Positions 4,790 through 63,449 of a stretch of 64,000 bases of DNA are shown piece by piece. The notes under the pieces are model-generated. The model was given only the letters and a program-made list of their open reading frames with translations, was not told the origin of the DNA and did no database searches. The first letter of the stretch is position 1; the number at the start of each line of letters is the position of its first letter. The position numbers and the translations under genes were made by a program. This DNA is from Carcharhinus amblyrhynchos (Eukaryota): positions 66,712,001 through 66,776,000 of the forward strand of contig OZ336879.1 in NCBI GenBank assembly GCA_965287045.1, read 5' to 3'.

Positions 4790-6700
4790 AATTATTATGG
4801 CGCAGAGCGAATGTGCTGTGGACTGACTGCACGCCTGAGCACTGGATGCAAAATCATGAGAAGACAGCAAGGCTCCAGTATCTAAAACCAGCTGCATCTT
4901 TGCCTGAGAGGAGGCTCCATTAGTGCTTCATTGGAGTCCTTGGTACAGGGAATGGAGAGGAGGAGAAATGTCATCCATCCTCAAGGGTCAGGAGGGTTTC
5001 CAGACACATTTTCAAAGACAGGGGCTTCAGTCGATGTCAATGCAAGGAATCCAGCCCCAAGGTCCTTGATGTAGTGAAGCAAAGTAGCCAAGGTCAGTGA
5101 ATGCACATTCAATATCCTTACAAACAGACCTCTGGCCTGACCCATTTCTCAGTGCACTGCAGCCCTGTCTCTAGCCTACCTCTATCAGTCTCAGCTCATA
5201 CTCAACATTCACGGCTTCCCCTCACCCTCGTACACTGCTGCAGACCTCAGTCCCAAATCCCTCAGATTGCACAAACTGCTAGCTTTCAATGGGATAGCCA
5301 CATCATCCAAACACATTGCACCACACCCATTGAAACGCTTACTTCTCTCTTACAGGACAAGGTGGCACACAGTTGGAAGGAGCAACCCCTACCTGAAAGA
5401 GGACAGGCATGGCTGCCTGTCCCTACACCAACAGGGAACAGAGAAAGCAGCAACTGTTATTTGTTCAGTCAAGGCCGATGTACGTTCAACAGGGAGGTGG
5501 AAACAGTTGAGGATGCTGATGTCCTCATACCTAATCTTCCTTCTCTTTCCATCATTTCTTTGATTTGCAAGCAGAAGATGGTGTGAGCGTGCACATTTTG
5601 TTCACCCCCACCAGCTCTGTCACACCAGCCGTTCACCATAACTCTTCAGCTTCCTCCTTTCACTTTAGTGCATTGGTAGGCCTGCCAGAAAGCCTGCAAT
5701 GCCAAGGAGTATGAAGAAGTCTGACAGAAACTTGGCTGAAAGCACAGAGCCCATCCTGTTCAGAATCAAAATGGTGGCCAGCTTCATGAGCACACTTGTT
5801 GATCAAATCAGGATGCAGCATCTGACAGTCAATGTCTCGGCTTTCATTGCAGCAGAAGCCATCCAATCAAATGTCAGGCTGAACTCGTGGCAGTTCAAGG
5901 AGCTACCATGCAAAAACACTCTGCTCCCGCACTGGCTCAGGGGGCCGTCCCGCACTGGCTCAGGGGGCCGTCCCGCACTGGCTCAGGGGGCCGTCCCGCA
6001 CTGGCTCAGGGGGCCGTCCCGCACTGGCTCAGGGGGCCGTCCCGCACTGGCTCAGGGGGCCGTCCCGCACTGGCTCAGGGGGCTGTCCCGCATTGGCTCA
6101 GGGGGCTGTCACTCCAGCTTTCAATACCAGTGTTCAAGGCATCATTCCAGGAATCCGTAAATCACCAACGGGCTAGTCGAATTGCCATGGCTCTCTACCA
6201 GTGGTTGTGGCTGTTTCAGGCCAGCCAGCAGCCCTGCTTACTGCCGCCCATGGTGCAGCCCAAAGCCAAGCCTTTTGGGCCTGGGGATATTCAAAGTAAC
6301 CCAACAAAGCCAATTACAGCCTCCTCCACTGAAACTTAGCCATGTGGCAGCTACATGGATAACACTGCTTAGGTCATCAGGACATGATTTAATGGAATGC
6401 AGTTGTCTGTAATGTGGCATGATTTGATTTATAAATTTTATTTGTGAAAAAATTATGATTGGTTTATTTTCTGATCAAACATACACTGTGATGGTCAGTT
6501 CCAAAGGAAAGATGAGGTGGGGGACTATTGGAGAAAGGGGAGCTGGTGTAATGTTTACTGGAAGGACAACTGGGTGAATCAATCATGGTCTGCCAGGTCA
6601 CTAAGGAGCTGCATTGGTTACCTCCTCCCCTTCAGGCTCCTCATACTCCTCCTCATTCTCCTCATCATACAGCCTTTATGTTTTATCAATCCTCATTGAG
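4790..6700 (+). mobile_element. Degenerate PIF/Harbinger remnant (Myb/SANT-like accessory gene region)
   Basis: About 4920-4980 reads SASLESLVQGMERRRNVIHP, resembling the Harbinger Myb-like start also seen on the - strand at about 34100-34170. Boundaries uncertain. Confidence 0.5.
5925..6110. repeat. Minisatellite, 8 copies of 23 bp TCCCGCACTGGCTCAGGGGGCCG
   Basis: Six identical units (5925-6062), then two with C>T variants. No spacers. Confidence 0.97.
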
Positions 6701-12568: not shown

Positions 12569-13535
12569 GGCAGCACAGTGGTTAGCACTGCTGCCTCAGG
12601 ACCAGGCACCTGGGTTCAATTCCTACCTTGGGTGACTGTCTGAGAGGAGCTTGCATGTTTTTTCCACTGCTGTGTGGGTTTCCTCCAGGTGCTCCAGTTT
12701 CCTCATACACTGGGATTAGATTGATCTTGCTAAACTGCCTCTTAGAGTCAGAGGGATTAGCAGGGTAAACACATGGGGGTACAGGGATAGGGCCTGGCTG
12801 AGATCTCTCCCTTAACGTCAACAAAATGAAGGAGTTTGTCATCGACTTCTACATTAATGGGGACAAAATAAAAATGGCCAAGAGCTTCAAGTTTTTAGGT
12901 GTCCAGATCACCAACAACCTGTCATGGTCTCCCCATGCCGACACTATAGTTAAGAGAGCTTACAAAAGGTCTCTACTTTCTCAGAAGACTAATGAAATTT
13001 GGCATGTCAGCTACAACTTCCACCAACTTTTACAGATGCACCATAGAAAGCATTCTACCTGGTTGTATCACAGCTTGGTATGGCTCCAGCTCTGCCAAGA
13101 CCACAAGAAACAACAAAAGGTTGTGAATGTAACCCAATCCATCACAACGCAAGCCAGCCTCCCATCCATTGACTCTGTCTACACTTCCCGCTGCCAGCAT
13201 AATGTGACATATTCTCTTCCACCTGCTTCTGTCGGGAAAAAGACACAAAAGACTGAGGTCCTGTACCAACCAACTCAAGATCAGTTTCTTCCCTGCTGCT
13301 TTCAAACCTTTGAATGGACCTAGTTCTCACTAAGTTGATCTTTCTCTACACCCTAGCTATGACTGTAATAGTACATTCTGCACTCTCTCGTTTCGTTCTC
13401 TATGAGCAGTATGCTTTCTCTATAGAGCGTGCAAGAAACAATACTTTTCACTACATACTATTACATAAAGAAGATTGTTGTCAGTACAGGTTTGATGGCT
13501 GAATGGCCTTCTCCTGCACTGTAAGGTTTCTGTGA
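12569..13535 (+). mobile_element. HE1-like SINE split by a Rex/Babar LINE fragment
   Basis: SINE runs 12569-12800 to gggatagggcctgg and resumes at about 13470 with gattgttgtcagtacagg...gaatggccttctcctgcactgtaagg. Confidence 0.8.
12803..13465 (+). mobile_element. Rex1/Babar-clade LINE 3' fragment
   Basis: LNVNKMKEFVIDF...FKFLGVQITNNLSWS (ORF 12826). Similar copies at 28199-29183 and 40475-41310. Confidence 0.8.
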
Positions 13536-15370: not shown

Positions 15371-16543
15371 TGTTGTTTAAAACAAGAGTTTTCACAGGTG
15401 CAGGTGCAACTATTTATATATGCAGGAAGCATAGGCTAAGTTTCTAGTGATTAATTCAATTTGGGCCTGGAATCCCTTCAGTCTCCCTCTGTCTGGAGAG
15501 ATCAACGCACTCGAAGTTCTATGTGTATTTCTGTGCTGGATCAGCCACTTTACAGTGTTCTGCATGTACTGCAAGCCAGGAGAAAGACCTTCAGCTCCAA
15601 CAGACACTTATTGTGAAGTAATTATTCGGATATTAGGTCTGATAGAAACCAGGGTAACGCATTCATTGAAAAAAAAGCCAGAAAGCGCTGCAGGGGCTGA
15701 AAATCCTACTGGGATGATAGAAGTCACTGAGATTGAGGGTCAGATTAAGATGAATAAAATTCAGAAATAGAATTTCATTACATTACTTGCAGATCAGGAA
15801 TTTATAATACATGAAATTTTGCATGTCCCAGATGACAGTGTGGCTCAGATCTTCCTCTTGCATAGAGAGTACTTATTACACAGTTATCCAGTCTTTCTGT
15901 TCACAGAAGGTCACATGCTGCAGTACTCTGATCTGATTTAATTTCAGTTTGAAACCCACTTACTCATCCTGCACAGCGAATCCAACAATGACTTCTTGTG
16001 GAGGATTTTACCTGTGATTCCTTCTTCCTCAATTTCTGGTCTTTCTCTTCCAATGGTTTGTAAAGCCAGAGAATATTGGACTAACAATGGTTAGATATTG
16101 GAAATACAGTTGCTGTTGTCCTTAGCATACAGAATTGTCGGGCTGAACTCTATGATGCCAGTGGGGAGGTTGTGAGTGGCACATGGGACCACAATCAGCA
16201 GCGACCTGTAAAGTGGCTGCTGACTGGCCTGCTGTACCAATTAAATAGAGTCCATGGGAACTGCTGGCCAATCAGAGGGCCAGGAGTTCATCAGCCTCAG
16301 CAGCGCCATGCCTAGTGGTGGCCATTGTTGGAGTTGCACTGGAGGATGAGGGTGCATGAATGGATGGCATCCTCAAAGCCAGGTAAGTGTGGTCTGGCAT
16401 TGCCAAAGTCAGTCAGGCAGTCTCTGGCGAAAGGGGCTGGGGAATCACTGTGGGCAGGTGGTGCTGTTACCTCTGTGGGGAACCATTACCACCAGGGAGC
16501 CTTTCATGAGCCAAAATCTGTTCAAGAAGAAAAAGAGAGGTCA

Positions 16544-17440
16544 TAAAACCTTGACCTTAAAATATTCTTGCTGGGTTGAAAGAATACTGCAAGATGCAAT
16601 ACATTGATCTGCTGCTGAGATGCAACTTTTTTGCTTCAGAGGTTGTCTTCTTGGGACTGAGAAGGTTGTTTCAAATGTTTGACGGACACAAAACTGTGAG
16701 AGGTAAAGAGAATAGACAGGAGGAACCTGCATTCCTTGACAAACTAAGTGGCAGAAGGCCACCAGAAGCCGTCAGGAAGATGCCAGGGTTTACCTGGCAA
16801 GCCTCCTATTACTGGTGGTAAAATTCCAGAAGTGACTGGAAGAGGTCCTTAATTGGTCACGTAAGTGTCTCAATTGGGCTCCAGGTGGGCGTGCTGTCAG
16901 CCACTTTTTCACCACTGGCAAGGTGGCAGGATAGGGCCAAGACAATTGACATGTGCCATTTTACTAACTATCCCACCTACAACCATGATACAGCACAGAA
17001 GGGTACCATTTGGCCCATCTTGTCTAGCTGACCCAAAGACACCCAGGTATCCTTTCTAATCCCACCTCCCCGCACATGGTCTATTGCCGTGCAGCTTAAA
17101 GCATTTAAGGTGCAGATCCAGGTACTTTTAAACAAATTTAGGGCTCCAGCATCACTCAGGCTGTGAATTTCATACATCCACCGTCTTCTGCTTAAAACAG
17201 TTTTTCCTCATGTCCCCTCTAATCCTTCTGCCACTTAGTTTGCCAAGGAATGCAGTTTCCTCCTGTCTATTCTCTCTTTACCTCTCACAATTTTGTATAC
17301 CTCAAACATTTGAAACAACCTTCTCAGTCCCAAGAAGACAATCTCTGAAGTAAAAAAGCCACATCTCAGCAGCAGATCAATGTTTTACATCTTGCAGTAT
17401 TCTTTCAACTCAGCAGGGCTATTTTAAGGTCAAGATTTTA
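16544..17440. repeat. Inverted duplication, arms 16544-16758 and 17224-17440
   Basis: For example, tcttcttgggactgagaaggttgtttcaaatgtttga is the reverse complement of tcaaacatttgaaacaaccttctcagtcccaagaaga. The alignment continues over about 215 bp. Confidence 0.9.
16980..17345 (-). mobile_element. CR1 LINE 3' fragment
   Basis: Tail accatgatacagcacagaagggtaccatttggccc and ttttcctcatgtcccctctaatcctt. Confidence 0.7.
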
Positions 17441-18529
17441 CGATCCCTCCTGTCCGGCAGGATTTTTTGATCCCACCAAAGTAAATGGCAATTTAAATTG
17501 CCAACTTCACCAGCCAGTGGGGGTGTAGGGGTACACAAACTGTGGAAGGGCATCAAATTCTGACCTACGCGTCTGTCAAGCAGAAACTTGATTTCCTCAC
17601 TGAAGGAAAAAAAAATACTCCCCTGGGAATGAAAGATACGGTTTTCACTGTAGGAGATAACAGTAACTGTTTCCTGGTTGTCTTGTAAGTGCAGAACCTT
17701 TGATAAGACAAATGATGGCAAAGGGATGGAGCAAAGTACAAGAACAAGACAAGGCAAGAGGCCAAAATTCCTTGAGACCCAATCCCAGGAGTGCAATAGG
17801 GTGACACCCACTGTCTTTCTTCACTGAGGAGAGCAACAAATTAGTATGGCACAGGATGGTACAAATGTTCAGATCTCTTCACTCCCCTCCTGACTCTAGA
17901 GGTGTTCTCTTGGTATAGTTGGCAGGTCCTCAAGTTTTGATAAAGTTATTTACTTTCAGACGTTCTGCACTTACAAGACAACCAGGAAACATAAGGAAAC
18001 AGAGGAGATCCAGCACATGTTTTCCTGAGTTACCTTCAGTTTCCCACTGGAAGTTACAGCTGCAGACTGACGGAACCAAAGAGATTTTGAGGCGAACATT
18101 TCTAAGTCTGGGAACGATGGAATAGTTATAGTCAAAGTCACTGTTACCTCCTGTGGTGAAAACCATCCCCACGAGTGTATTTTTTCCCTTCAATAGGGAA
18201 ATCAGATTTGCTTGGGAGCTCCCTGGAAGCTGTTATTCACTCAGCTGATAATACATTGTGCTTAGAAAAGAATCCCCTACTGCATCAATCTATATTTTAA
18301 AACTCATTGCTGCAATTAGAATTGTCAACAAGACTCTCAATTTGTGCTGAATTATGAGTTCTTACTGCTTCTTCCTGATAAACTGCATTGAGATCTCAAG
18401 CGCTAATTTCTCAACTGATCTTAGCAACCAAGAAGAAACATTGGACTAAAAATTCTGTGGCGATTCTTCTGATCTCCTGTTATTTAGTTGAGAGGGAAGT
18501 GGGGCTCACCGTGAAATCACACCATTTTC

Positions 18530-21010: not shown

Positions 21011-23551
21011 CATTCTTACCAAAAAAATGGCAAAGTGTCAGTATCTGACGGAAAACCAATGTGTTTCTCTCCAGAGGACAGGCCAATTTTCTCTCAAGAT
21101 TCTCTTCTCCCCACTCCCCCATCAAAGCCAGCATTTCTCCCACCCCACCCCTCCCTGACGATCAAAGCCAACTTCCCCTCCCACAATCTGCACCCCCATC
21201 AAAGACAGCATTACCCTCTCTCTCTCCCAAATCCTCACCCAGAGGGAAGAGTGTCAGAGCCCTTCCCTCTGCCAAACAACCATCACCAGCATCCACACCA
21301 TTTTCACATCCACCCCCTCCACTGCCACAAATAAATGAGTCCTCCTCCATGAGGCAGTGTCGGGAATGACCATGTCCCTCTCCCCGGAGGCTATACTTAC
21401 CTTCGCTCCCATAGGAGGGGGGTGGTGGGGAGCCCCATTCTCCCACAACAGGTTCACATCTGGGTGAACCTATTATAAACCTCACCAATATGTGAAAATA
21501 CAGCGAGTGGGTTTTGAATTATATTGAAGTGCACTATTATAGGCTTGACCCTGATTATGTTGCTGGCAAGGAGTGGCGAAAATTAGTAATTGCTAACTCG
21601 CTGGCGAGATTCATGATTTCCAGGTTTTGTTGGATCTTGAGCAGCCACCCCCCCCCCCCCCCCCCCACCACCCCCACTGCCCCCTCACCAATCTTGTGGA
21701 GAGCACAGACTCAAGATCACCCCCAATATGTTACAAAATCAATGGAGATCAGTTACTCAAACTCCCTGATATTAAAAGAAAGAATTACACTACAGGATCT
21801 CACGTTTAAACCAAAACATTTACTGCACAAGAGTTAAGCAACACAACTACTTGACACTTTATTTCATGCGCACTAACGCTTTGAACTTGCAAACCTCAAT
21901 ACAACACTCCCTGTTCTACTTTTAATCCAATAGTCCCCCTAACCTTTAAAAGATTTTGAGAGTTCTTTAACTTTCCATGAGACCAAACCAAGGCCTGCCA
22001 CAACTTTCAGGAATTGGATTCTTTCAGTATTTCCACAACGCTATTAGATATGAGATTCTTGGGGTCCTTCCAGTAGCATCCAGCAAGACAAACCTTCCAA
22101 CTCCCCTTCAATACTTAAAGATTTTAAAAAGTTCTTTCAAAGGATGTGGGTGCAGCCTAATTGCCCTTAAGGCATTGGTGATTAGCTGCCTTTTTGAACC
22201 ACTGCAATCCACATGTTGAAAGCATCACCGCAGTACAGTTAGAAGAGGAGTTGGAGGATTTTGACCCAGCGATAGTGAAAGAATGGCAATTATAATTCCA
22301 AGTCAGAATGGTGGATGGCTTTAAGGGCAACATCCAGGTGTTGGTGTTCCCATGCACTTTGTTACGATCTGGATAGGGACCATTAACATTTAAAGATGCA
22401 GGTCTATCTAACTGTAACTTACTTTGGCTACCTGCTCTCAGGGAGCTGCAAACTGCACCCACCAGTCCCAAGCTTCAACTACCACTTGGGTGGCTTTACA
22501 TCCCTTTATATCGCCTCAACTGGTTTCAGTCAGCCCAGCAATTTTGGTTTCCAGATTCTAGATTCAGTTTTTCTGTCCTAAGAAACAGGAAGATTCAGTT
22601 TCCTTTCTATGTTTGCCTCTTCTATTTCCATTTTCAGCTTCTGATTTCAGTTAGGTCATGCATTGTTTAAGTTTCCCACCTGCTGCTCTACAATTCTATC
22701 TCTTTACTCTAACCTTGTAAGTGTAATAACCTCCTAGCTTATTTGCATTGCATTCCCCATTTTCTACAGTTGAAACTTTAATTCTTAAAATAAGAAGTTA
22801 TATTCTAAAACTAAAAGGTATATTCTAAAGCACTTGAACCATGAACTAGATATTTGCAACTATCTGCTGCCCTTGTCCTTCTAGGTGGTAGAGCCTGTGG
22901 GTTTGGAAGATGCTGTCAAAGGAACTTTGGTGAGTTTCTATAGTGCATATTGTGGATGGTACATACCGCGGCCACTATGCGTCGGTGGTGAATGGGGTGC
23001 CAGTCAAACGGGGTGCTTTGTCTTGGATGTTGAAGAGCTTCTTGAGTGTTGGTAGATTTGCAGTCATTCAGGCAAATGGAAAGTCACACTCTGAACTTGT
23101 GCCTTGTAGCTGCTGGACAGGCTTTGAGGAGTCAGGAGGTGAGTTACTCTGACCTACTCTTGTAGCCACAGTATTTATATGGCTGGTCCTGTTCAATTGC
23201 TGATCAATAGCAACCCCCAGGATGTTGACAGTGGGAGATTCAATGATGGCAATGTCATTGAATGTCAGGATAACATGGCTAGATTCTCTTCTGTTAGAGG
23301 TGATTATTACCTGGCCTTGTAGTGTGAATGTTAGTTGCCACTTGTCAGCTCAAGCCAGAATGTTGTCCAGGTCTTGCTGCACATGGATAGACTGCTTCAG
23401 AATCTGAGAGGTTGTGAATGGCACTGAAGATTGTACCGTCATCATCAAACATTGCCATTTCTAACCTAATGGGAAGGTCATTGATGAAGCACCTGAAGAT
23501 AGTTGGACCTAGGACACTACCCTGAGGAATTCCTGCAGTGATGTACTGAAA

Positions 23552-23675
23552 GAAGTCTCACAACACCAGGTTAAAGCCCAACAGGTTTATTTGGTAGCAC
23601 AAGCCACAAGCTTTCGGAGTGCTGCTCCTTCATCAGGTGAGTGGGAGTTCTGTCCAACACCGGCATCTTCACATC
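23552..23675 (-). mobile_element. Short Penelope-like insertion with target-site duplication
   Basis: gaagtctcacaacaccaggttaaag...tcatcaggtgagtggg plus an oppositely oriented end tccaacaccggcatc. Flanked by gtgatgtactgaaa (23538-23551) and gtgatggactgaaa (23676-23689). Confidence 0.8.
23603..23640 (-). ncRNA. Minimal hammerhead ribozyme motif
   Basis: - strand reads ucac-CUGAUGA-A-GGAG(cagca)CUCC-GAAA-GCU-U-GUGG: catalytic boxes, stem II, palindromic AGCU stem III and CAC/GUG stem I. The cleavage triplet is the unfavourable CUU. Confidence 0.65.
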
Positions 23676-24562
23676 GTGATGGACTGAAACAGAAATGATT
23701 GATCTCCAACCACCACGACTATCTTCCTACCTTCCATTGGGCATGACTCTAGTCAGTGGAGAGTCTTCCACTGATTCCCATTGATTCCAGTTTTGTTAGG
23801 GCTCTTGATGCCACACTCAGTCAAATGCTGCCCTGATGTCAAAGGCAGTCACTCTCACCTTGCCTCGGGAGTCCAGTTCTTCTGACAATGTTTGGACCCA
23901 GGCAGTAATGAGGTCAGTAGCTCAGTGACCCTGGTGAAACCCAAACTGAGCATCAGTGAGCAGGTTATTGCATTGTAAGTGCCTTTGGATAGCAGTATCA
24001 ATGACGCCTTCCATCACTTTGACAAATTGTTGGTAGTTTTTGTGGACAAGACAAAGCTGGGCAATTTTCTATGTTGCCATGTAGATGTCATACAATCCTG
24101 GAACAGCTTGGCTTGGAGCACAGCTAGCTCTGGAGGACAAGAGTTCAGTATTACTGCTGGAATGTTGTCAGTGCCCACAGCCATTGCGGTATTCAGTTCC
24201 TTCAGCTATTTCTTGATATCATGTGAAGTGAACTGAATTGGCTGAAAACTGATATCTGTGATTCTGGGGATCTCAGGAAGAGGCTGGTTCCCTAATTAAA
24301 GCTTGGGCATCACTGCAATCTGGCTTATTGACTTCAAATGGCAAAACATCCTTGGGTTTGTGATAGCCTTCTGCTATTGGCTCCAGCTGCTCTGCATCGC
24401 CTGGCAAATCATTTCTCTGCCTTCTGTAAACCGCTCAAGATCTAGAGCTCAGCCTGCTTATGCCTATGAAAAATCACCCAGATAAAACGATTACCAAAAA
24501 TAAAATGCTCTTTTAATCTGTCCCCAAGGCAATGAGGGATGCCTGGGATGCCGGAGATAGAA

Positions 24563-31289: not shown

Positions 31290-31602
31290 ATGTCACACTA
31301 CGTGTAATTCCCACCATCTGGCCTGGGCTCGCAAAATCTTACAAATTGTCCTGGCTTGAGACAATTCACATCTCTTTAACCTGTAATTATCCCTCTCTCC
31401 ACTCACATTATCTGTATCTGTAAAGACTTGATTACCTTTAAAGACTCGCATTCCAACCATTATCTTGCAATGCTGCCTTTGTCTATATATGCCGTGTTTG
31501 TGAAACCTACCTCTCCACTCACCTGAAGAAGGGGCAGCGCTCCAAAAGCTCATGATTCCAAATAAACCTGTTGGACTTTAACCTGTTGTGAGACATCTTA
31601 AT
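31290..31602 (+). mobile_element. Penelope-like terminal repeat fragment with mutated hammerhead
   Basis: cac-CTGAAGA-A-GGGGC(agc)GCTCC-AAAA-GCTC at 31520-31551 (GAAA changed to AAAA), followed by aaataaacctgttggactttaacctg. Confidence 0.75.
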
Positions 31603-31859
31603 GTGAGGACAGTGCAGGAGGTCAACCCGCTCCTACGATCCTGGGGGCAGAAAAAGCAGGGGGGAAGACAACCAAGGAGAACTGGGGGCAACTAGCCAAG
31701 CACAAGGAAGGCTGCATTGTCAAACAGTGTAAAACTCTCTGACTTTGGGCCCAGTGGTGATGAGCAGCAACACCCTTCCCCATAAAGACAGAACACTGAG
31801 CAGCAGGAGGGCAGAGGAAAGGAACGAGGAGGATGAAGTAAATGGAGGCCATATGGAGA

Positions 31860-31990
31860 CTTCGTCAGGTGGGTGGGAGAAATGGAGTTCTCCCACCCAC
31901 CTGACGAAGGGACAGCCTGTTCCGAAAGTTTGTGGCATTTGCTACAAATAAACCTGTTGGACTTTAAGCTTGTGTTGTGAGACTTCTTGC
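31860..31990 (+). mobile_element. Short Penelope-like insertion with a perfect 22 bp hairpin
   Basis: Arms 31860-31881 and 31888-31909 are exact reverse complements. Followed by aaataaacctgttggactttaa...gtgttgtgagacttctt. Confidence 0.8.
31897..31935 (+). ncRNA. Minimal hammerhead ribozyme motif
   Basis: CCAC-CUGACGA-A-GGGACA(gcc)UGUUCC-GAAA-GUU-U-GUGG. Core boxes and stems I and II are intact; stem III and the cleavage triplet are altered. Confidence 0.6.
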
Positions 31991-32647: not shown

Positions 32648-32978
32648 TGATTTGACTTATTATTGTCACATGTATTGGTAATCAGTGAAAAATATTATTT
32701 CTTGCATGTAACGAAGACAAAACTTACCAAATATAGAGTACATAGTGGAAAGGGAAAAGGAAAGGGTGCAAAATATTGTATTAGAGGTAGGGTGAAGAGA
32801 AAGATCATCTTAATACATGAAAGTAACGTTGGAAGGCCTGGTGGCAGCTGAGAAGAAGCTGTTCTTGAGTTGGTTGGTATGTGTTTTCAGACTTTTGTAT
32901 CTTTTTCCCGATGAAAGAAGATGGAAAAGGGTATATCCAGAGTGCATGGGATCCTTGATTATGAGGCTGCTTTCCCGA
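32648..32978 (-). mobile_element. Rex/Babar 3' fragment
   Basis: agaagaagctgttcttgagttggttggta matches about 28380-28407. Confidence 0.8.
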
Positions 32979-37660: not shown

Positions 37661-38356
37661 ACATTAACCAGCAGTATTATAAACATGCAACCTCTCAACT
37701 CCACTCACCAGTATTTTCCGATCTTTGTTATTCCTAATCTTCACTCATACTGATACCAACCATATGTCACAACTCCCATTAAGATACACAGGATTTTTCT
37801 GCACAAAGTATCTCATTGAAATGGTGTTCACATTTAGTTAAGTACCTGAAATATCCAATGTACAGTTGACTGCATTGCTAAACAAAAAAACAACTCAATT
37901 AGGTTCTACTAACACATCAAAGTGCTGATTTTACAAAATTCCATTCCTGCTTTTGAGCCTGGGCTGTTGGGAGTGTTTCTCGTAAATTTAAGCAAGCTTC
38001 CCGTATGCATTGATGGTGAATGTGAATCCCCACCAGAATTACAATTACGCAAAATGATTCCTTAAATTACAACGGTACAACAGGATTTCCGCTCAATGAG
38101 CTTAATACGTCACATACCAAAAAAAATCTTGATTCATTACAGCATCAGTCAACCCCGTGTTTACGGTCTGTGGTGTAGGTGTGTGCAATACATTTGCCTT
38201 ACGTTGGAATAATTGAAATATTGGAACAACAGAACTGACATTATCACCTTTCTGACTGACCCTGCAGTGTAATATATCTGAGTGGCAATGAAACTGCTGC
38301 TGCTTGCATGCCTGTACATTAAATATTTGACCTTCCACTATAATGCTCATTAAACT

Positions 38357-40474: not shown

Positions 40475-41310
40475 TCAAGTTTACTGATGACACCACCGAA
40501 GTGAGTTGGATCTCAAACAATGACGAGACAGAGTACAGGAATAAGATAGAGAATCTGATGAGCTGATGCGGCAACAATAATCTCACCCTCAATGTCAACA
40601 AAACGAAAGAGATTGTTATCGACGTTAGGAAGCATAAAGGAGAACATGCCCCTGTCTACATCAGTGGGGGTGAAATAGAAAGGGCCAAGAACTTCAAATT
40701 TTTAGGTGTCCAGATCAGCAACAACCTGTCCTGATCCCCCCATGCCAACACTATAGTTAAGAAAACCCACCAACGCCTCGACTTTCTAAGAAGACTAAGG
40801 AAATTTGACATGTCAGCTATGACTCTCACCAACTTTTACAGAAGCACCATAGAAAGCATTCTTTCTGGTTGTATCACAGCTTGGTATGGCTCCTGCTCTG
40901 CCCAAGTCTGCAAGGTACTACAAAAGGTCATGAATGTAGCCCAATCAATCACGTAAACCAGCCTCCCATCCATTGACTCTATCTATACTTCCCGCTGCCT
41001 TGGCAAGGCAGCCAGCATAATTAAGGACCCCACGCACCCCGGATATTCTCTCTTCCACCTTCTTCCATTGGAAAAAGAATACAAAAGTCTGAGGTCACGT
41101 ACCTACAGACTCAAGAACAGCTTCTTCCCTGCAGCTGGCAGACATTTGAATGGACTTATCTTGCATTAAGTTGATCTTTCTCTGGCTCTGACTGTAACAC
41201 TGCATTCCACACTCTCTCCTTTATGAATGATATACTTTGTATAGCGTGCAAGAAACAATAGTTTTCATTGTATGCTAATATATATGACAATAATAAATCA
41301 AAATCAAAAA
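40475..41310 (+). mobile_element. Rex1/Babar-clade LINE 3' fragment
   Basis: Begins ttcaagtttactgatgacaccacc (F[A/T]DDT RT motif), matches 28199-29000 in reverse, ends aataaatcaaaatcaaa. Confidence 0.88.
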
Positions 41311-41974
41311 ATAAATAGAGCTAGAAAGGACTAGTATACAATTGGTTTCTGCGTTCATGCCTATTTTGCAGCAAAAAGAAGTGTCACCATTATGTGAGCA
41401 CTCAGGGTTCCCCGATGATCTATTGAGATTACCCGGGTTCCATGGCTCAAAGGGTTTGGGAACCCTGCTGTAACGTATCAAGATGTTTCTTTCAGTATGG
41501 GGCATATTAAGGTTGTTGAGTGGAAGTCCTGTTGCACCTTTGCAGTTTAAGGAATCATTTTGCATAGTTGTACTCCTGATGGGGATTCACATTCAACATG
41601 AATACATTTTGGAAACTTGTTTAAATTTACAAGAAGCACTTCCAACAGCCCAGGCTCAATGTCAGGAATGCAATTTTGTAAAATCAGCACTTTGATGTAT
41701 TGGTAGAGCCTAATTGAGTTGCTCCTTTGTTTGGCAGAGTATTTGTTACCTATGCAGACTACCATACAGAGGACATTTCAGGTACTTAACTAAATGTGTA
41801 CACTATTTCAATGAGATACTTTGTACAGAAAAGTCTTGTGTGTTTTAATGGGAATTGTGATGTATGGTTGATATCAGGAGAGATTAGGAATAACAAAGAT
41901 TGGAAAACATTGGTGGGTGTAGTTGATAGGCCTTCAAATGGTTATACTGATGGACAAAATATTAAATAAGAACA

Positions 41975-43975
41975 ATTTAAATCTGTAACAAAGGCAACAT
42001 AAGAATCATGGGGGACTTTAATCTTCATATAGACTGAACAAATCAAATTGACAAAGGCAGTCCGGATGCGATAAGTTTGTAGAATGTTTGCCCAGCAATT
42101 TCCTGGAACACAAGGCTGTACAATCAATTAGAGACACAACTATTTTAGATCTGGTACTCTGCAATGACAGTAAGAAGTCTCACAACACCAGGTTAAAGTC
42201 CAATAGGTTTATTTGGTAACACAAGCTCTGACTGTAACACTGTATTCCACACTCTCTCCTTTATGAATGATATACTTTGACAGTAAATCACTGTGCAGCC
42301 ACCTCTGAAGGCTAGCTTCCAAAGTGCTGCTCCTTCATCAGGTAAGTCTGCTTCATCAGGTGACTGATGAAGGGGTAGCGCTCTGAAAGCTAGTGATTGT
42401 GCTACCAAATAAACCTGTTGGACTTTAACGTGGTGTTGTGAGTCTTCTTACTGTGTTTACCCCAGTCCGACACCGGCATCTCCACATCATTCTGCAATGA
42501 GGCAGGGTTAATCAGAAATCTAAGTAAAAGATCCTCTGGGCAAAAGTAATCATAATATGGTTGAATTCCATTATAAGTCTGAGAATATACTTGGGTCCAA
42601 AACAAGAATCTTAAACTTAAAGCAATTTACATAGGTGTAGGGAAACAGTTGGCTATGGTTTTTTGGTTCAGTAAACGAAGAAGTATGGCATTAAGCAAGA
42701 AGTGAGAAACTTTTAAGGAAGTGCTAGCGAGAAAGAGAGAGGTTGGTGAGAAGGGGACATTTACCATGTTGTTAAAATAAGGGATAGCTCATTTAAGACA
42801 TGTGATGGATTTTGTTGCCCCCACCCAGAGTACATTCAGTGTCCTAAATACCGTCAGTGTTTTCAATATGGGGAGCACTGATACATCAGCTGAGAGGGGT
42901 GGTAGGTGATAATAAGCAGGAGTTTCCCTTTCCCATGTTTGACCTGATGAAAGGAGACATCATGGGGTCCAGTGTCAATGTGAAGACTCTGAGGATCACT
43001 TTCTGTAGACAGTAAATCACTGTGCAGCCACCTCAGATGGGTCTGTCCTGCCAATAGGATAGGACACACCTAGGAATGGTGAGGAAGGAATCTGTAATAT
43101 TGGCTGTAATGTATCAAAGGAGGGAGACAAAATCAGGGAACTCTGGACCAGTTCACATGACATCAGTTATCAGAAAAATGTTGGAATATGTTATTAAAGA
43201 AGTCTTAACAATTCACTTTGAAAACCACACTGTGATCAGACAAAGTCAACTTGATGTTCTGAGAGAAGTTTTTTGAGTTTTCTAATTAATAAGGTAGATA
43301 AAGGGGAGACAATAGATGTATACTTGGATTTCCAAAAGCCATTCAAAAAGTGACTCATACATAAGGTGCACAAGATAAGGCCTCATGGCATTGGGTTAAT
43401 ACATTAGCATGCATGGAGGATTGCTGAATGGACAGGGAGCAGAGTTGGAATAAATGGGACATTTTCAAGTTGGCAGGCTGTAATCAGTGGAGTGCATAAG
43501 GATCAGTGGTGGGACTCCAGCTAATTACCATCTATGTGAATGACTCAGAATAATGTAGGAAATGTATACTATGAGAGAACACCAAGAGTCTGCAAGGAGA
43601 TTTTGATTGGTTAAGTGAGTGGGCAACGAGGTGGTAGGTGGATTATAATGACAGGGTGGCATGAAGTATTAAGAATACCAAGCAGAACATTTTCAAAAAG
43701 ACATGAAACTTCTAAATGTTGATATTAAGAGAGAGACTTGGGTATACTCATATAATATAGATATGTAGATACAGCAAACAGTTTGGGAGGCAGATGGACT
43801 ACTGGCCTTTATTGCAAGGGCATTGGAGCATTTCATTCTTTATTCCCACACTACAGAGTACAGAATTGGCTGTACATTTTTTAGGAATTCTTGCTGCAAT
43901 TGTACAGGGATTTGGTGTGGTCACAGCCAGAAAACTGTTTGCATTTTGAACTTCATATCTATGAGTTGGAGGCGG
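41975..43975 (+). mobile_element. Old fragmented CR1 LINE with Penelope and L2 fragments inside
   Basis: Endonuclease-like IMGDFNL (atcatgggggactttaatctt) near 42005. RT-like YLDFQK and LYRDLV fragments at 43320-43970. Confidence 0.7.
42168..42490. mobile_element. Palindromic Penelope-like insertion with perfect 10 bp TSD and two opposed hammerhead-type motifs
   Basis: TSD tctgcaatga at 42158-42167 and 42491-42500. Left arm cagtaagaagtctcacaacaccagg is inverted relative to right arm ggtgttgtgagtcttcttactg. + strand CTGATGA-A-GGGGT(agc)GCTCT-GAAA-GCTA-GTG at 42364-42395. Confidence 0.85.
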
Positions 43976-53990: not shown

Positions 53991-55104
53991 TGACCCCTGC
54001 AACAAAAGTTTAGAAATTGGGGTGTTGTAAAACACGGAAGAAAACACAGGCTAAACTCAGAAATACTTTGTTTGAAAGAAGAAGTGAGGTAGTGCTTTAA
54101 GATTTTGTGGCGTATCATGCTTATGCAAGCCCTTTCCAAAGAAAAAATAGTAGGAATTCTTGGCACCGTGGGACTGAATGAGAACACTGAGCAGTGGAGC
54201 CCATATACTGAAAGATTTGATTATTTTGTCCCAGCGAATAAAATTTGGGTGATATCATAGTCCCAATGTTCTTGAGCACAATGGGGGAAAAGCACTCAAT
54301 CTCTTGAGAACTCTGGCGTAACTGGAAAAGCCAGGCTTAAAAGCCTATGATGAGAGAGTCATTTCTCACCTAAACCTTTGGTCATCGCAGAGAGGTTCAG
54401 GTTCCACAAGCACAACCAACAAGAATGTGAATCAATTACACAGTTCATTGCCACTCTGAGGAAATTAGCTGAATACTGTGAATTTGGGGATGGCTCGAGC
54501 AACACCATTAGAGACAGACTCGTGTTTGTCTTCAGAAGCAAAACTATCCAAAAGCCGACTGTTAACAGAAAGCAACCTAAACCTAAAGAAGGTTTTAGAA
54601 GTCACTTTCTCCGTGGAATTGGCAGCCAAGAAAGCTCAACAGTTAAGTTTGAGCACTAGAGTTCATAAAATGTCGCCTGAGACCTGAACACAGACACAGG
54701 TTTGAAATTGCCACCAATGTGCACAAACTGTATACACAGCAGCAGATTGCTGGAGCAAAGAGAAAAAGTGCAGAAGTTGTGGCAGAAAAGGGCACACCAA
54801 ACGTGCTTGTTGGAGACAGAAATGACAAGTTCCAGGCAAGAACTATAAGAAGCAAGAACCAAATGCCTGATATGGAAACCTGAATAGAGAGGAAAGTATT
54901 CACCTGATGTGAAAAAGATGCAAAAAAATGACCAGAGTAATAGCCTGAAGATGGACTGTCATTGAACATATTGGCTATAACTGGTGCAACAAACCCATAC
55001 TGAGTCACTCCTTTAGTCGATTAACAACCAGTGAAAATGGAAGTGGACACAGGAGCAGCAGCTTTGTTGGTACCAGAAACTACCAAGAAAAACGAGGACA
55101 CATT

Positions 55105-57861: not shown

Positions 57862-58163
57862 GTCCGGGTCTCAGCCAACATTTTATAGATTCTAGTGCTC
57901 AAACTTAGCTATTGAGCTTCTTTGGCTGCCAATTCCATCGAGACCATGACTTCTAAAGCCTTCTTAATAACCACTTGTGGATAGCTTCACTTCTTAAGCC
58001 ATACACTAGTCTGTCTCTAATGGTGTCATTCAAGACATCCCCAAATTCACAGTATTCAGCTAATTCCTTCAAAGTAGCTATAACTGAGTGATTAATTTCC
58101 CTTCTTGGTTATGCTTGTGGAACTTGAACCTCTCGGCAATGACCAAAAGTTTAGGTGAGAAGT
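57862..58163 (-). repeat. Inverted copy of the gag segment about 54362-54688 inside the integrase region
   Basis: catccccaaattcacagtattcagctaatt is the reverse complement of aattagctgaatactgtgaatttggggatg. ORFs 54359(-) and 58088(+) share WLCLWNLNLSAMTK.LGEK. Confidence 0.9.
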
Positions 58164-61220: not shown

Positions 61221-61645
61221 ACGTCTTTTTACTTTGCTGGCCTTTGCTGATTTGAGTTGTAACAGCACTTGTAATGTTACAATTGATCTAAGTACCCCTG
61301 TGCCTGTGCCTATGTTAGCTCTTTGAGAGAGTTATCCAATTAATTCCACTCCCTTGTTCCTCACCCATGGCCAATTTTGCTTTCCCAGGCAATTATGTTT
61401 TAAAAGTTACTATGGACTCTGCTTCTGTCACCTTTTCAGGCAGCAGTGCATTCCAGATCATACCAACTAACCAATGACAAAAAGGCCACCACACCCATAC
61501 AACTGTACCTCAGCAATAGTCAGCATCTCCAGGGTAGGAAGAAAGAAAATTAGAACAGAAAATGACCTCCGTTTCAAACTGTGCTGAAATTTTCAATTCC
61601 AGCAGAGATTATAATTAATCCATTTTCTTGTGCATTATTTTGAAG

Positions 61646-61750
61646 GTCCGGATCCAGGGCTTAACAGGGAACGTTCAGTTTGACAACTACGGGCGACGGA
61701 CAAACTTCACAATAGATGTATTCGAGCTGAAAAATACAGGCCACAGAAAG
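61646..61750 (+). CDS. GRIA4: GluA4 internal coding exon, [35 protein letters not shown]
   Basis: 105 bp, ttttgaAG|GTC...AAG|GTgaga. [13 protein letters not shown] and DVFELK best fit GluA4 among recalled AMPA paralogues. Confidence 0.93.
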
Positions 61751-62910
61751 GTGAGATGTCTTGAGCAAAAGTTCACGTCAGCATTAATTGTCAGCCTCCT
61801 GTCCAACATGCCAAAGAATACACTGGCGGAAGAGGCCGGCAAATGCTCTCCTTCTAAAAGTGTTGATCAGGAGCTTCTGGAGTCAAGGGTGGAATCTGGT
61901 GTATCTAAGATATTCATTTCTCATTTAAAAATAACCTGCAGAAATTCTGACAAATCCATGTCTACAAGTGAGTGTGATGATGATGAGTGCCAGAAATTGA
62001 GCTTTGTACCACTACAATGGTATTATGTAGGATTTATATTACAGCTCAACAAATCAATGCTGGTTTTTATGTTCCACATGCACTTTCTTCTAGCTGTCTT
62101 CATCTAACCCCACGAGCACATCTTCCTATTTTTCTTCCCCCATCTGTCTAGTTAACTTCTACTTAAATGGACCCATATCAATTGTTTCAACTACTTCTTG
62201 TGGCAAGTTCCACTTATTAACCACTCACTGGATAAAGAAGTTTCTCATGAATTCCCAATTTGATTTATTAGTGACTATCATGGATGTATGAACTCGGACT
62301 ACTAAGATATGAGGTGCGCTGCGTGATCCTTAAAGCCTCTTCAGTTTATACAATAATGTTCTAAATTGGATTAGCTATAAACAATATCTACACAATAACA
62401 ACTGGGTGCATATTTTCTTTCTGATAGTCAGTAGAAGAAGTGTATCAATGGCTGAGCCAGGAGTTTTTAAATCGTGGGACAGAGGAACAAATGATATAGG
62501 ATATGGTGTGTGTCAGGCTGAGAAATCATTTGCCTTGCTCATGTAAGACCAGGATTTTACAATTCCTCTTTATTGTGGTGCGATTGTTTTTTGCCAGCCC
62601 CAGCATGTCCATGCTGCACCATAAATTTACACTTCTTCCCCATAACCGAAACTGTAAAATGTTGATTATCATAAGGTCTGCCTCGGCCTAGTCAACTGCC
62701 ACCATGGACCTCCTGGATTTCATCCAGTTTTCTTGTTGCAGTCACTGAGACTGAAATGTAATGATCCAGACGAATTCATCAGTTCAACATCATTTATTAC
62801 AGTAAAATAAAATCTCTGCTCCCTCTTGAATTTTTAATTCTTTAGCTACATGCCAATAAATCGCCATTCTTGCATGTTAGGTTTAGATTGAGTTATGGAC
62901 ACAGCGTGAT

Positions 62911-63449
62911 GCACTGAAATGGAAGTGAAATTAGTTTAGGCAGTTTTCAGGCCGCAAATGATTGGCAGACGCACATCATGCGCCTGGAACCAGAGGTAGA
63001 CATCTTGTTCGAAATTAGGATTCATGTCTCATCTGAATAATTCTGACAAGACAGATTCCTCTAGACAAAGCTGTGCTCTCACGTAGGCATTGGGGCGGTG
63101 GTGAATGGGTGGGGGCCAAAGCATTGCTGTTGAACCCTAAGAAACAGTCTTTCTTCTCCTCGTTCCATACTGAGTAAACTGCAAAGAAACTTTTTCACTG
63201 GCAACCTACAGCAGTATTGTTAAGGGCCATTGGTTAGACCATCCCACAGAAGGTACCGGAAAATACTGAGCCAAGCACATCTGCACATACACTCATTATT
63301 ACCATTACTGAGGCACTGAAGTGGGAGCAAAATTACTTTAGGCACGCTTTCAGGCCAAAAATGATTGGCAGGCTCACATCATGTGCTTGCAGCCAACGGC
63401 ACAATTGTTTGAAATTAGCATTCATGTCTCATCTGAATAATTCTGACAA
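62911..63449. repeat. Direct repeat, about 138 bp units at 62911-63049 and 63313-63449
   Basis: The last 30 bp are identical (attcatgtctcatctgaataattctgacaa at 63020 and 63420); the rest is clearly alignable. Confidence 0.88.

What the first reader, a model, noticed from the sequence alone, without database searches (positions are those of the whole stretch)
42225..42311. Double templated insertion stitched from sequences 1040 bp upstream and 729 bp downstream
Inside the Penelope-like element, 42225-42279 equals 41185-41239 (55 bp, one mismatch), including deletions private to that Rex copy compared with the 13350-13420 copy. It is followed at once by 42279-42305, which equals 43008-43034 (27 bp, perfect), then tgaagg, then the Penelope sequence resumes. 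The junctions overlap by 1-2 nt. Sequential copying of both flanks into a break is the established signature of polymerase theta-mediated end joining or related template switching, here fixed in a germ line. The break lies within a palindromic element, a plausible fragile site, a few bases from the expected hammerhead cleavage position of the left arm.
Basis: partly seen in the sequence, partly recalled or inferred. Interest (0 to 1): 0.75.

Follow-up and report, generated by a model that had tools for sequence, protein, structure and literature searches.

The report
Two-donor DNA repair patch in intron
An 85-base insert in a dead transposon copy of a fish genome consists of two pieces that match sequence about 1 kb upstream and 0.7 kb downstream, likely the scar of one error-prone DNA break repair, a known kind of mutation with no sign of function.

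Summary
42225-42279 matches 41185-41239 at 54/55 and shares that copy's private changes. 42279-42305 matches 43008-43034 at 27/27. A public run carries 42250-42347 without differences at full single-copy depth, so junctions 2-3 are not misassembly; junction 1 was not shown. New: three related runs have T at 43035, as the patch does. The 'tgaagg' remainder is therefore templated: donor 2 extends to 33 bp (32/33 against the older allele), or, equally well, a third switch used the right palindrome arm. The net insert is 85 bp with about 2 bp lost, and microhomology is 2, 1 and 0 nt. It is a complex templated insertion. It does not fit the classical polymerase-theta signature: its tracts are 55 and 33 bp (typical: under 10-25 bp), its donors lie 0.7-1 kb away (typical: about 20 bp), and each donor is copied onto its own side of the break. 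Long-range microhomology template switching (MMBIR/FoSTeS-like) fits better, and such germline events are documented in humans. The nearby hammerhead site is probably coincidence, and palindrome fragility is untested. The unpatched allele was not seen. Ordinary scar, unusually clean; no function.

The parts
42227..42311 (+). Net insertion, 85 bp, replacing about 2 bp of the left arm of the Penelope-like element
   Evidence: size of the loss inferred from the paralog at 23550 and from the right arm
42225..42279 (+). Patch segment 1, direct copy of donor 1 (first 2 nt are microhomology with the recipient)
   Evidence: 54/55
42279..42311 (+). Patch segment 2, direct copy of donor 2 (27 exact; 33 with one mismatch against the older donor allele); last 9-13 nt alternatively from the right arm
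   Evidence: (43035 A>T)
41185..41239 (+). Donor 1: 3' untranslated end of a LINE with RVT_1 + PF09004 domains (Rex1/Babar-type label recalled); intact; near end 987 nt from the break
43008..43040 (+). Donor 2: inside a minus-strand LINE fragment of about 42830-43105 (endonuclease-like frames by recalled motifs; Pfam found nothing); intact; near end 696 nt from the break
42168..42490 (.). Non-autonomous palindromic Penelope-like element: left arm 42167-42341 (interrupted by the patch), right arm 42364-42454, 36-nt tail 42455-42490
   Evidence: inverted repeats I1/I2; family ends at 42167-42170 and 42490 from loose ends of many other copies (table 7)
42158..42167 (+). Left 10-bp target-site-like duplication
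42491..42500 (+). Right 10-bp target-site-like duplication
42364..42402 (+). Minimal hammerhead-like motif in the right arm (core matched by pattern; 42381-42393 is the possible third template)
   Evidence: no Rfam hammerhead hit; MFE folds do not give the hammerhead fold

Best explanation
The 85-bp insert is built from two pieces that match local sequence on either side, and it is likely the scar of a single germline repair event in which a broken or stalled DNA end switched templates on very short microhomology. Shown: the order recipient -> donor 1 (1040 bp upstream, direct, 55 bp) -> donor 2 (729 bp downstream, direct, 33 bp) -> recipient; both donors intact; about 2 bp lost; junction overlaps of 2, 1 and 0 nt. 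Inferred: a break opened in the left arm of an already inserted Penelope-like palindrome. A 3' end primed at a 2-nt match about 1 kb upstream, on its own duplex or on the sister chromatid, and copied 55 nt. It moved on a 1-nt match to a template about 0.7 kb downstream and copied about 33 nt, then was joined back to the other end. The same product results if the right end did the copying in reverse order, or if each end copied one piece from its own side and the two were then joined. At least one step needs a same-side or sister template, not the opposite overhang. The polymerase is unknown; Pol theta may have made the last join. The copy predates the T-to-A change at 43035. No function is indicated.
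For: Identity and adjacency. Private donor variants are shared. It is the only such abutting local pair among 116 exact segments. Run X1, record 4: 98 aligned nt, 0 differences over 42250-42347, depth 14.5 versus 12.3-13.3 for unique flanks and 6.6/7.0 for single haplotypes (table 8). T at 43035 in the long orthologous contigs of 3 of 3 related runs, but not in X1's long contig, extends donor 2 and dates the copy (table 3; read from the from_end values matching table 8 pieces). The element has intact 10-bp flanking duplications, and the patch lies inside an arm, about 57 nt from the element end and about 36 nt from the central junction. Related runs have flank contigs running into the element ends, so the insertion of the element is shared (table 8). 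Multi-template germline insertions >=25 bp are documented: 33 of 103 and 26 of 99 events in two humans, many in quasi-palindromes, with >=1 bp microhomology at 138 of 155 and 135 of 148 junctions (PMC8421209, section 10 part 1).
Against: Microhomologies of 2, 1 and 0 nt are no longer than chance, so they do not show microhomology priming. No unpatched orthologous allele was seen: the listings were cut (384,072 pieces and 1,159 joints not shown). Junction 1 is not among the listed pieces, and junction 2 has only 30 letters on its left side, one short of the tool's bridging rule. Dating does not separate patch from element: patch vs donors 3/87, arm vs arm 9/88, Fisher p = 0.13 (p = 0.019 only with the shorter 1/81 count). 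No whole genome was held, so the genome-wide best hit was not tested.
Confidence: 0.62

Rival explanations
1. Classical polymerase theta end joining: each end primed on the resected overhang, aborted, and re-primed.
For: Small loss at the site, patchwork of flank copies, 1-2 nt overlaps; tracts over 20 nt occur occasionally (PMC12426944 passages); TMEJ signatures are reported in the human germline (PMC7615360 section 9).
Against: Tracts of 55 and 33 bp, against rarely over 10 bp and generally under 25 bp. Donors at 696-1041 nt, against a peak within 20 bp and under 0.1% of repair from distal templates. Priming on the opposite overhang would put the downstream copy first; the order here is the reverse (inference from the anatomy).
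Confidence: 0.1
2. One template, not two: the broken end copied across a ready-made junction on a sister or homolog from which 41240-43007 (including the palindrome) had been deleted, then returned.
For: Explains in one step why both pieces are direct, in chromosomal order and contiguous; needs only one invasion and one return.
Against: No such deletion joint is among the listed joints, and contigs cover the interval in 4 of 4 runs (listing truncated, contigs drop rare alleles). It needs a prior or simultaneous second event. The geometry arises by chance 1 time in 16 with random side and strand.
Confidence: 0.1
3. The patch was made while the Penelope-like element was inserting, by its reverse transcriptase or by host repair jumping onto nearby target DNA.
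For: Junction 1 is 2-4 nt from the hammerhead-like site; arm vs patch divergence is not significantly different (p = 0.13); these elements make complex tandem and inverted structures by an undefined route (PMC8557442 passages).
Against: The patch is inside an arm, not at an element end or at the inversion point. The flanking duplications are clean. The point estimate of divergence is three times lower (3.4% vs 10.2%). Hammerhead mutants did not change insertion in vitro for the Anolis element (PMC11167929 passages).
Confidence: 0.08
4. End-joining capture of two free fragments cut from a sister or homolog, such as Spo11 double-cut pieces or resection by-products.
For: Junction overlaps of 0-2 nt resemble captured inserts in mouse germline (bioRxiv 2020.06.23.168138 passages); piece lengths of 33 and 53-55 nt fall on the 33/43/53-nt Spo11 ladder (bioRxiv 2019.12.18.881268 passages).
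Against: The length match was noticed after the fact, and a 10-nt ladder is easy to hit. It needs at least five cuts within 1.9 kb, with order and both orientations kept by chance (1 in 8). Locally derived inserts in that mouse study were inverted.
Confidence: 0.05
5. cDNA patch from a cryptically spliced local transcript (donor 1 and donor 2 as pseudo-exons of the host pre-mRNA).
For: The skipped interval begins with GT at 41239 and ends in a pyrimidine-rich stretch plus AG at 43008; the locus likely lies in an intron of a plus-strand GRIA4-like gene.
Against: Removing the GT..AG interval gives a product one base shorter than the patch, which keeps a G.
Confidence: 0.02
6. Assembly artefact, or copies taken from distant members of the two repeat families.
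For: Both donors are high-copy repeats (depths, table 2); junction 1 was not seen in the listed pieces; X1 could be the source sample.
Against: X1 record 4 has no differences across junctions 2-3 at full depth. X1 differs from the window at 43116 at full depth, which suggests another individual. The patch differs from its donors at 3 sites, which a copy error of the assembler would not give, and it keeps the older allele of donor 2. Private variants are shared with the local donor only.
Confidence: 0.03

Closest known systems
Complex germline MMBIR-type templated insertions (MMB-TI 'complex' and 'direct duplication' classes; PMC8421209)
   Same: Insert >=25 bp from several local templates, short junction microhomology, return to the original locus, quasi-palindrome setting, inherited.
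   Different: All segments here are direct; that paper's classical class has an inverted template. The section I read gave no template distances, and its supplements, which I did not open, may. Here the host is a fish and the evidence is one locus.
Polymerase theta templated insertions (TINS; PMC7165422, PMC11541566, PMC12426944)
   Same: Patchwork of flank copies at a site with a small deletion; 1-2 nt overlaps.
   Different: Tracts several times longer, templates 30-50 times farther away, and donor order opposite to cross-junction priming.
Loop-out synthesis-dependent MMEJ (PMC2943611)
   Same: Same-side priming that yields direct repeats, as both segments here do.
   Different: The examples in the passages I read are a few bases long with short primer repeats near the break; here the loop would be 0.7-1 kb.
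Local n-jumps and bridges of templated insertions in cancer genomes (PMC7025897)
   Same: Copy-and-paste of local templates in one event, leaving the donors intact; three linked junctions.
   Different: Those are somatic and detected as copy-number segments; this one is 85 bp and inherited.
Templated sequence insertion polymorphisms, class 2 (PMC5110952)
   Same: A germline patch at a break with microdeletion and microhomology.
   Different: Their donors are distant and proposed to pass through RNA; these donors are local, and the junction is not an exact splice.

Membership tests
Complex templated insertion (MMBIR/FoSTeS-type) | Insert copied from two or more identifiable templates, donors intact | tested here: met
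Complex templated insertion (MMBIR/FoSTeS-type) | Microhomology at the switch points | tested here: inconclusive
   2, 1 and 0 nt under two donors; 2, 1, 6 and 4 nt if the right arm is a third template; the first set is no longer than chance
Complex templated insertion (MMBIR/FoSTeS-type) | Return to the original locus, present in germline DNA | tested here: met
   element resumes at 42312; full-depth contig in X1 over junctions 2-3; junction 1 not listed
Complex templated insertion (MMBIR/FoSTeS-type) | Origin at a collapsed fork; polymerase dependence | not testable with these tools
   needs genetics
Pol theta TINS | Short synthesis tracts (rarely >10 bp; insertions generally <25 bp) | tested here: not met
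   55 and 33 bp
Pol theta TINS | Templates next to the break (peak within 20 bp) | tested here: not met
   696-1041 nt
Pol theta TINS | Direct repeats arise by priming on the opposite resected end | tested here: not met
   upstream donor sits on the upstream side and downstream donor on the downstream side; at least one step needs a same-side or sister template (inference; model)
Pol theta TINS | Loss of the class in POLQ mutants | not testable with these tools
   needs genetics
Penelope-like element (host) | Inverted truncated pLTR copy and 30-40 bp tail | tested here: met
   arms I1/I2; 36-nt tail 42455-42490 (table 7); definition from PMC8557442 passages
Penelope-like element (host) | Hammerhead motif in the pLTR | tested here: inconclusive
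   core pattern found in the right arm and in 3 of 3 other copies checked, with variant cores; no Rfam hit; MFE folds do not show it
Penelope-like element (host) | Linked RT + GIY-YIG reading frame | not tested
   this copy is 323 bp and has no room for it; no autonomous partner was sought, so the family label is partly recalled
TSIP class 2 | Distant donor, RNA intermediate | tested here: not met
   donors within 1.1 kb; splice reading misses by one base

The most novel reading that the evidence does not exclude
The patch is a fossil ruler of DNA end resection. The near ends of the donors (987 and 696 nt from the break) would mark the resection endpoints, in the range of mouse meiotic minimum resection (0.4-1 kb, PMC7016097 passages) and near the 1-2 kb cited for humans (PMC7615360 passages). 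A genome-wide class of such mirror-symmetric double patches would let resection length be read from genomes of animals that cannot be studied experimentally.
Probability: 0.12. Interest if true: 0.55.

Novelty: new member of a known kind. Interest (0 to 1): 0.22.

Why it matters
As a single locus it matters little: a neutral scar in repeat DNA, likely within an intron of a GRIA4-like gene. It is a clean example that long-range multi-template insertion, described mostly from human patients, tumours and model organisms, also leaves inherited scars in a fish lineage, and that such scars should not be labelled polymerase theta products by default. It can serve as a presence/absence marker among close relatives. 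It would matter more only if the mirror geometry recurs genome-wide and tracks resection length, or if such patches are enriched in Penelope palindromes. One of my literature searches ('templated insertion' + 'shark') returned 4 papers, none on this topic by title and abstract start; another ('Penelope' + 'hammerhead' + 'shark' + 'inverted') returned 0. The library is partial, so this does not show absence from print.

Tried and rejected
No whole genome was held, so the genome-wide best-hit and enrichment tests could not be run. Two exact-pattern scans of metagenome contigs for the flank/element junction and for junction 1 found 0 loci. Reads laid from 4 runs could not show the patch state in the 3 related runs: repeat contigs swamped the tables and most rows were not displayed; the missing rows are no evidence of absence. 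Rfam found no hammerhead (3 weak unrelated matches, 0). Pfam named 1 of 15 frames near the locus, so the labels for the host LINE (CR1-like) and for the donor-2 LINE rest on recalled motifs; the protein identity of donor 2's element stays open. Other long exact matches in the window (16535-17449, 37691-38144 vs 41466-41930, 54363 vs 58161, 62907 vs 63309) are old repeats at 76-90% identity, not patches. Splice-junction reading: off by one base. A hidden 4-nt microhomology shared by the donors (41238-41241 and 43004-43007) would need a later 3-nt loss; unproven. Three independent simple events (two tandem duplications plus a deletion) were rejected because they would have to share one breakpoint within 2 nt. 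A fold-back copy of the left arm as source of the last 9 nt fits worse today (6/9, compared by eye from the sequence) than donor 2 or the right arm, but cannot be excluded. Earlier scan notes: none near this place or by sequence, none for one word search. One review (PMC10962320) was not held. One intended look-up in PMC10923293 returned nothing usable, so I saw only its search listing.

Full report
Observation. The sequence is as reported. 42225-42279 matches 41185-41239 at 54 of 55 bases, and 42279-42305 matches 43008-43034 at 27 of 27, extending to 33 bases with two mismatches. I aligned three other copies of the same LINE 3' end in the window (13350, 28315 reverse, 30969 reverse). The patch gives 41, 41 and 46 matches with 8, 5 and 20 gap columns against them, and 54 matches with no gaps against the local copy (alignment). 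A fourth, interrupted copy near 32650-32880 has no listed hit over the patch interval. Of 124 self-BLAST pairs in the window, 2 are at least 95% identical over at least 30 nt: a minisatellite and this 55-mer. Of 116 exact segments of 20 nt or more, 4 pairs abut without being colinear, and only this pair has both partners within 2 kb.

Setting. The recipient is a 323-bp palindromic element: arms 42167-42341 and 42364-42454, a 36-nt tail, ends confirmed by loose ends of many other copies at 42167-42170 and 42490 (table 7), and 10-bp flanking duplications. Inverted arm plus 30-40 bp tail matches the description of Penelope-like elements (PMC8557442, passages). A hammerhead core pattern is present in the right arm and, with variants, in 3 of 3 other copies checked. 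Rfam gave no hammerhead hit. Donor 1 lies behind a decayed frame with RVT_1 and PF09004 matches, whose listed relatives are mostly fish retroelement proteins, bony and cartilaginous. 'Rex1/Babar', 'CR1-like' for the interrupted host LINE, 'endonuclease fragment' for donor 2's element, and 'shark-like' are recalled labels, not tool results. An exon at about 61640-61745 on the plus strand matches glutamate receptor 4 best. Because it is an internal exon, the locus is likely intronic (inference).

Independent data. I laid 4 of 23 listed runs. In X1, record 4 covers 42250-42347 with no differences (98 of its 104 letters aligned) at depth 14.5. Unique flanks have depth 12.3, 13.3 and 12.8, and a heterozygous bubble at 42614-42726 has 7.0 and 6.6. 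The patch is therefore likely on both haplotypes. Junction 1 is not among the listed pieces, and 384,072 pieces were not shown. X1 carries T at 43116 at full depth where the window has A, which suggests another individual but could be an assembly base error. The related runs differ from the window in unique flanks by 23/1644 (X18), 42/1585 (X19) and 52/1701 (X20), against 2/1738 for X1 (from the listed pieces). Their flank contigs run into the element: from the right in 3 of 3, from the left in 2 of 3. The element is thus shared. Their state at the patch was not displayed.

A new detail. At 43035 the window has A and the patch has T at the matching base. The long orthologous contigs of X18, X19 and X20 carry T (from_end 216, 121 and 216 match the pieces in table 8), as does about 96% of the family depth in X1, while X1's own long contig does not. 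So T is the older state, the copy was made before the change to A, and segment 2 runs to 33 bp with one mismatch. An equally good reading is a third switch, on 6 nt of microhomology, to the right arm (42303-42315 vs 42381-42393, 12 of 13) and back on 4 nt. The two readings tie at one mismatch each. Either way there is no untemplated filler. The net insert is 85 bp and about 2 bp were lost.

Age. Patch and donors differ at 3 of 87 sites (3.4%, 95% interval 0.7-9.7%); the arms differ at 9 of 88 (10.2%, 4.8-18.5%). The difference is not significant (p = 0.13; p = 0.019 only with the shorter 1/81 count). The patch is probably younger than the element and may be about as old as the split from the related runs. 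Co-insertion is not excluded by dating alone.

Mechanism. Three junctions in one place, intact donors and a 2-bp loss point to one copy-and-paste repair event (inference). The upstream donor was copied onto the upstream side and the downstream donor onto the downstream side, both direct. If each end had simply primed on the opposite resected overhang, the order would be reversed. At least one step therefore used a same-side duplex (a long loop-out) or the sister chromatid. I put about 0.62 on microhomology-level template switching of this kind after the element had inserted, with the polymerase unknown. Rivals: classical Pol theta 0.10; copying across a pre-existing deletion junction 0.10; co-insertion 0.08; capture of free fragments 0.05; spliced cDNA 0.02; artefact or distant donors 0.03. 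These are my judgments, not computed values. The overlaps (2, 1, 0 nt) are too short to prove microhomology priming.

Comparison with known systems. It works like a complex templated insertion and meets the testable features of that class. In two human genomes, 33 of 103 and 26 of 99 germline events of 25 bp or more were multi-template, and two classes arose in quasi-palindromes (PMC8421209, passages and section 10 part 1). It fails three testable features of Pol theta insertions: tract length (PMC7165422 and PMC12426944, passages), template distance (PMC11541566, passages) and donor order. Same-side direct copying is the loop-out model (PMC2943611, passages), here at far longer range. Local n-jumps (PMC7025897, passages) and FoSTeS/MMBIR insertions with 0-2 nt overlaps (PMC5120786, passages) are the larger-scale counterparts. 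Class 2 TSIPs differ in having distant donors (PMC5110952, passages). I also read passages of PMC11167929, PMC7016097, bioRxiv 2020.06.23.168138 and bioRxiv 2019.12.18.881268, and passages plus section 9 of PMC7615360. I opened no supplements; those of PMC8421209 may hold template distances that bear on how unusual 0.7-1 kb is, and the preprints' supplements were closed.

Hammerhead and palindrome. By my reading of the motif, the cleavage position maps between 42222 and 42223 on the minus strand, 2-4 nt from junction 1. The ribozyme cuts RNA, not DNA. A break anywhere in the element would fall this close to one of two such sites about 6% of the time, and hammerhead mutants did not alter insertion in vitro for a related element. 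I treat the nearness as coincidence unless the patch proves co-insertional. The palindrome is a plausible fragile site, but the break is in mid-arm, and one locus cannot test enrichment.

Verdict. A real, inherited, neutral repair scar: a new instance of a known class. The boldest reading left open (about 0.12) is that the two donors mark the resection endpoints of one germline break, which a genome-wide survey could test. Earlier scan notes describe similar scars in other genomes; they are unchecked and are not used as support.

Noticed in passing
window 61640-61745 (+): Exon matching the amino-terminal domain of an AMPA-type glutamate receptor, best to GluA4; much of the window is likely a large intron of a GRIA4-like gene.
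   Followed up: partly
window 5925-6110: GC-rich minisatellite, 23-bp unit, 8.1 copies, 98% matches; very homogeneous compared with the old repeats around it.
   Followed up: no
window 16535-16758 and 17224-17449; 17668-17703 and 17956-17991; 17577-17668 and 18136-18214: Clustered inverted repeats (226 bp at 90%, 36 bp at 94%, 92 bp at 70%), possibly transposon ends or local inverted duplications.
   Followed up: no
window 37691-38144 and 41466-41930: Inverted pair of about 470 bp at 81% identity, 3.3 kb apart; low depth over most of 41466-41930 suggests a low-copy sequence, so perhaps an old local inverted duplication.
   Followed up: partly
window 62907-63049 and 63309-63449: Direct pair of 144 bp at 82% identity, 400 bp apart, ending in a 30-bp exact match.
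   Followed up: no
window 54363-54650 and 57901-58161: Inverted pair at 76% identity, likely two decayed retroelement fragments (label recalled).
   Followed up: no
window 42614-42726: Run X1 is heterozygous here, with 4 differences in 113 nt between haplotypes; one haplotype shares 3 listed alleles (42644, 42662, 42696) with all three related runs, suggesting an old or introgressed haplotype.
   Followed up: no
window 41239 and 43008: The interval skipped between the two donors starts with GT and ends in a pyrimidine-rich stretch plus AG, a near miss by one base for a splice junction.
   Followed up: yes
window 23550-23680, 31523-31605, 31901-31988: Three further copies of the Penelope-like family, of at least two subtypes, each aligning over one arm only and with variant hammerhead cores.
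   Followed up: partly
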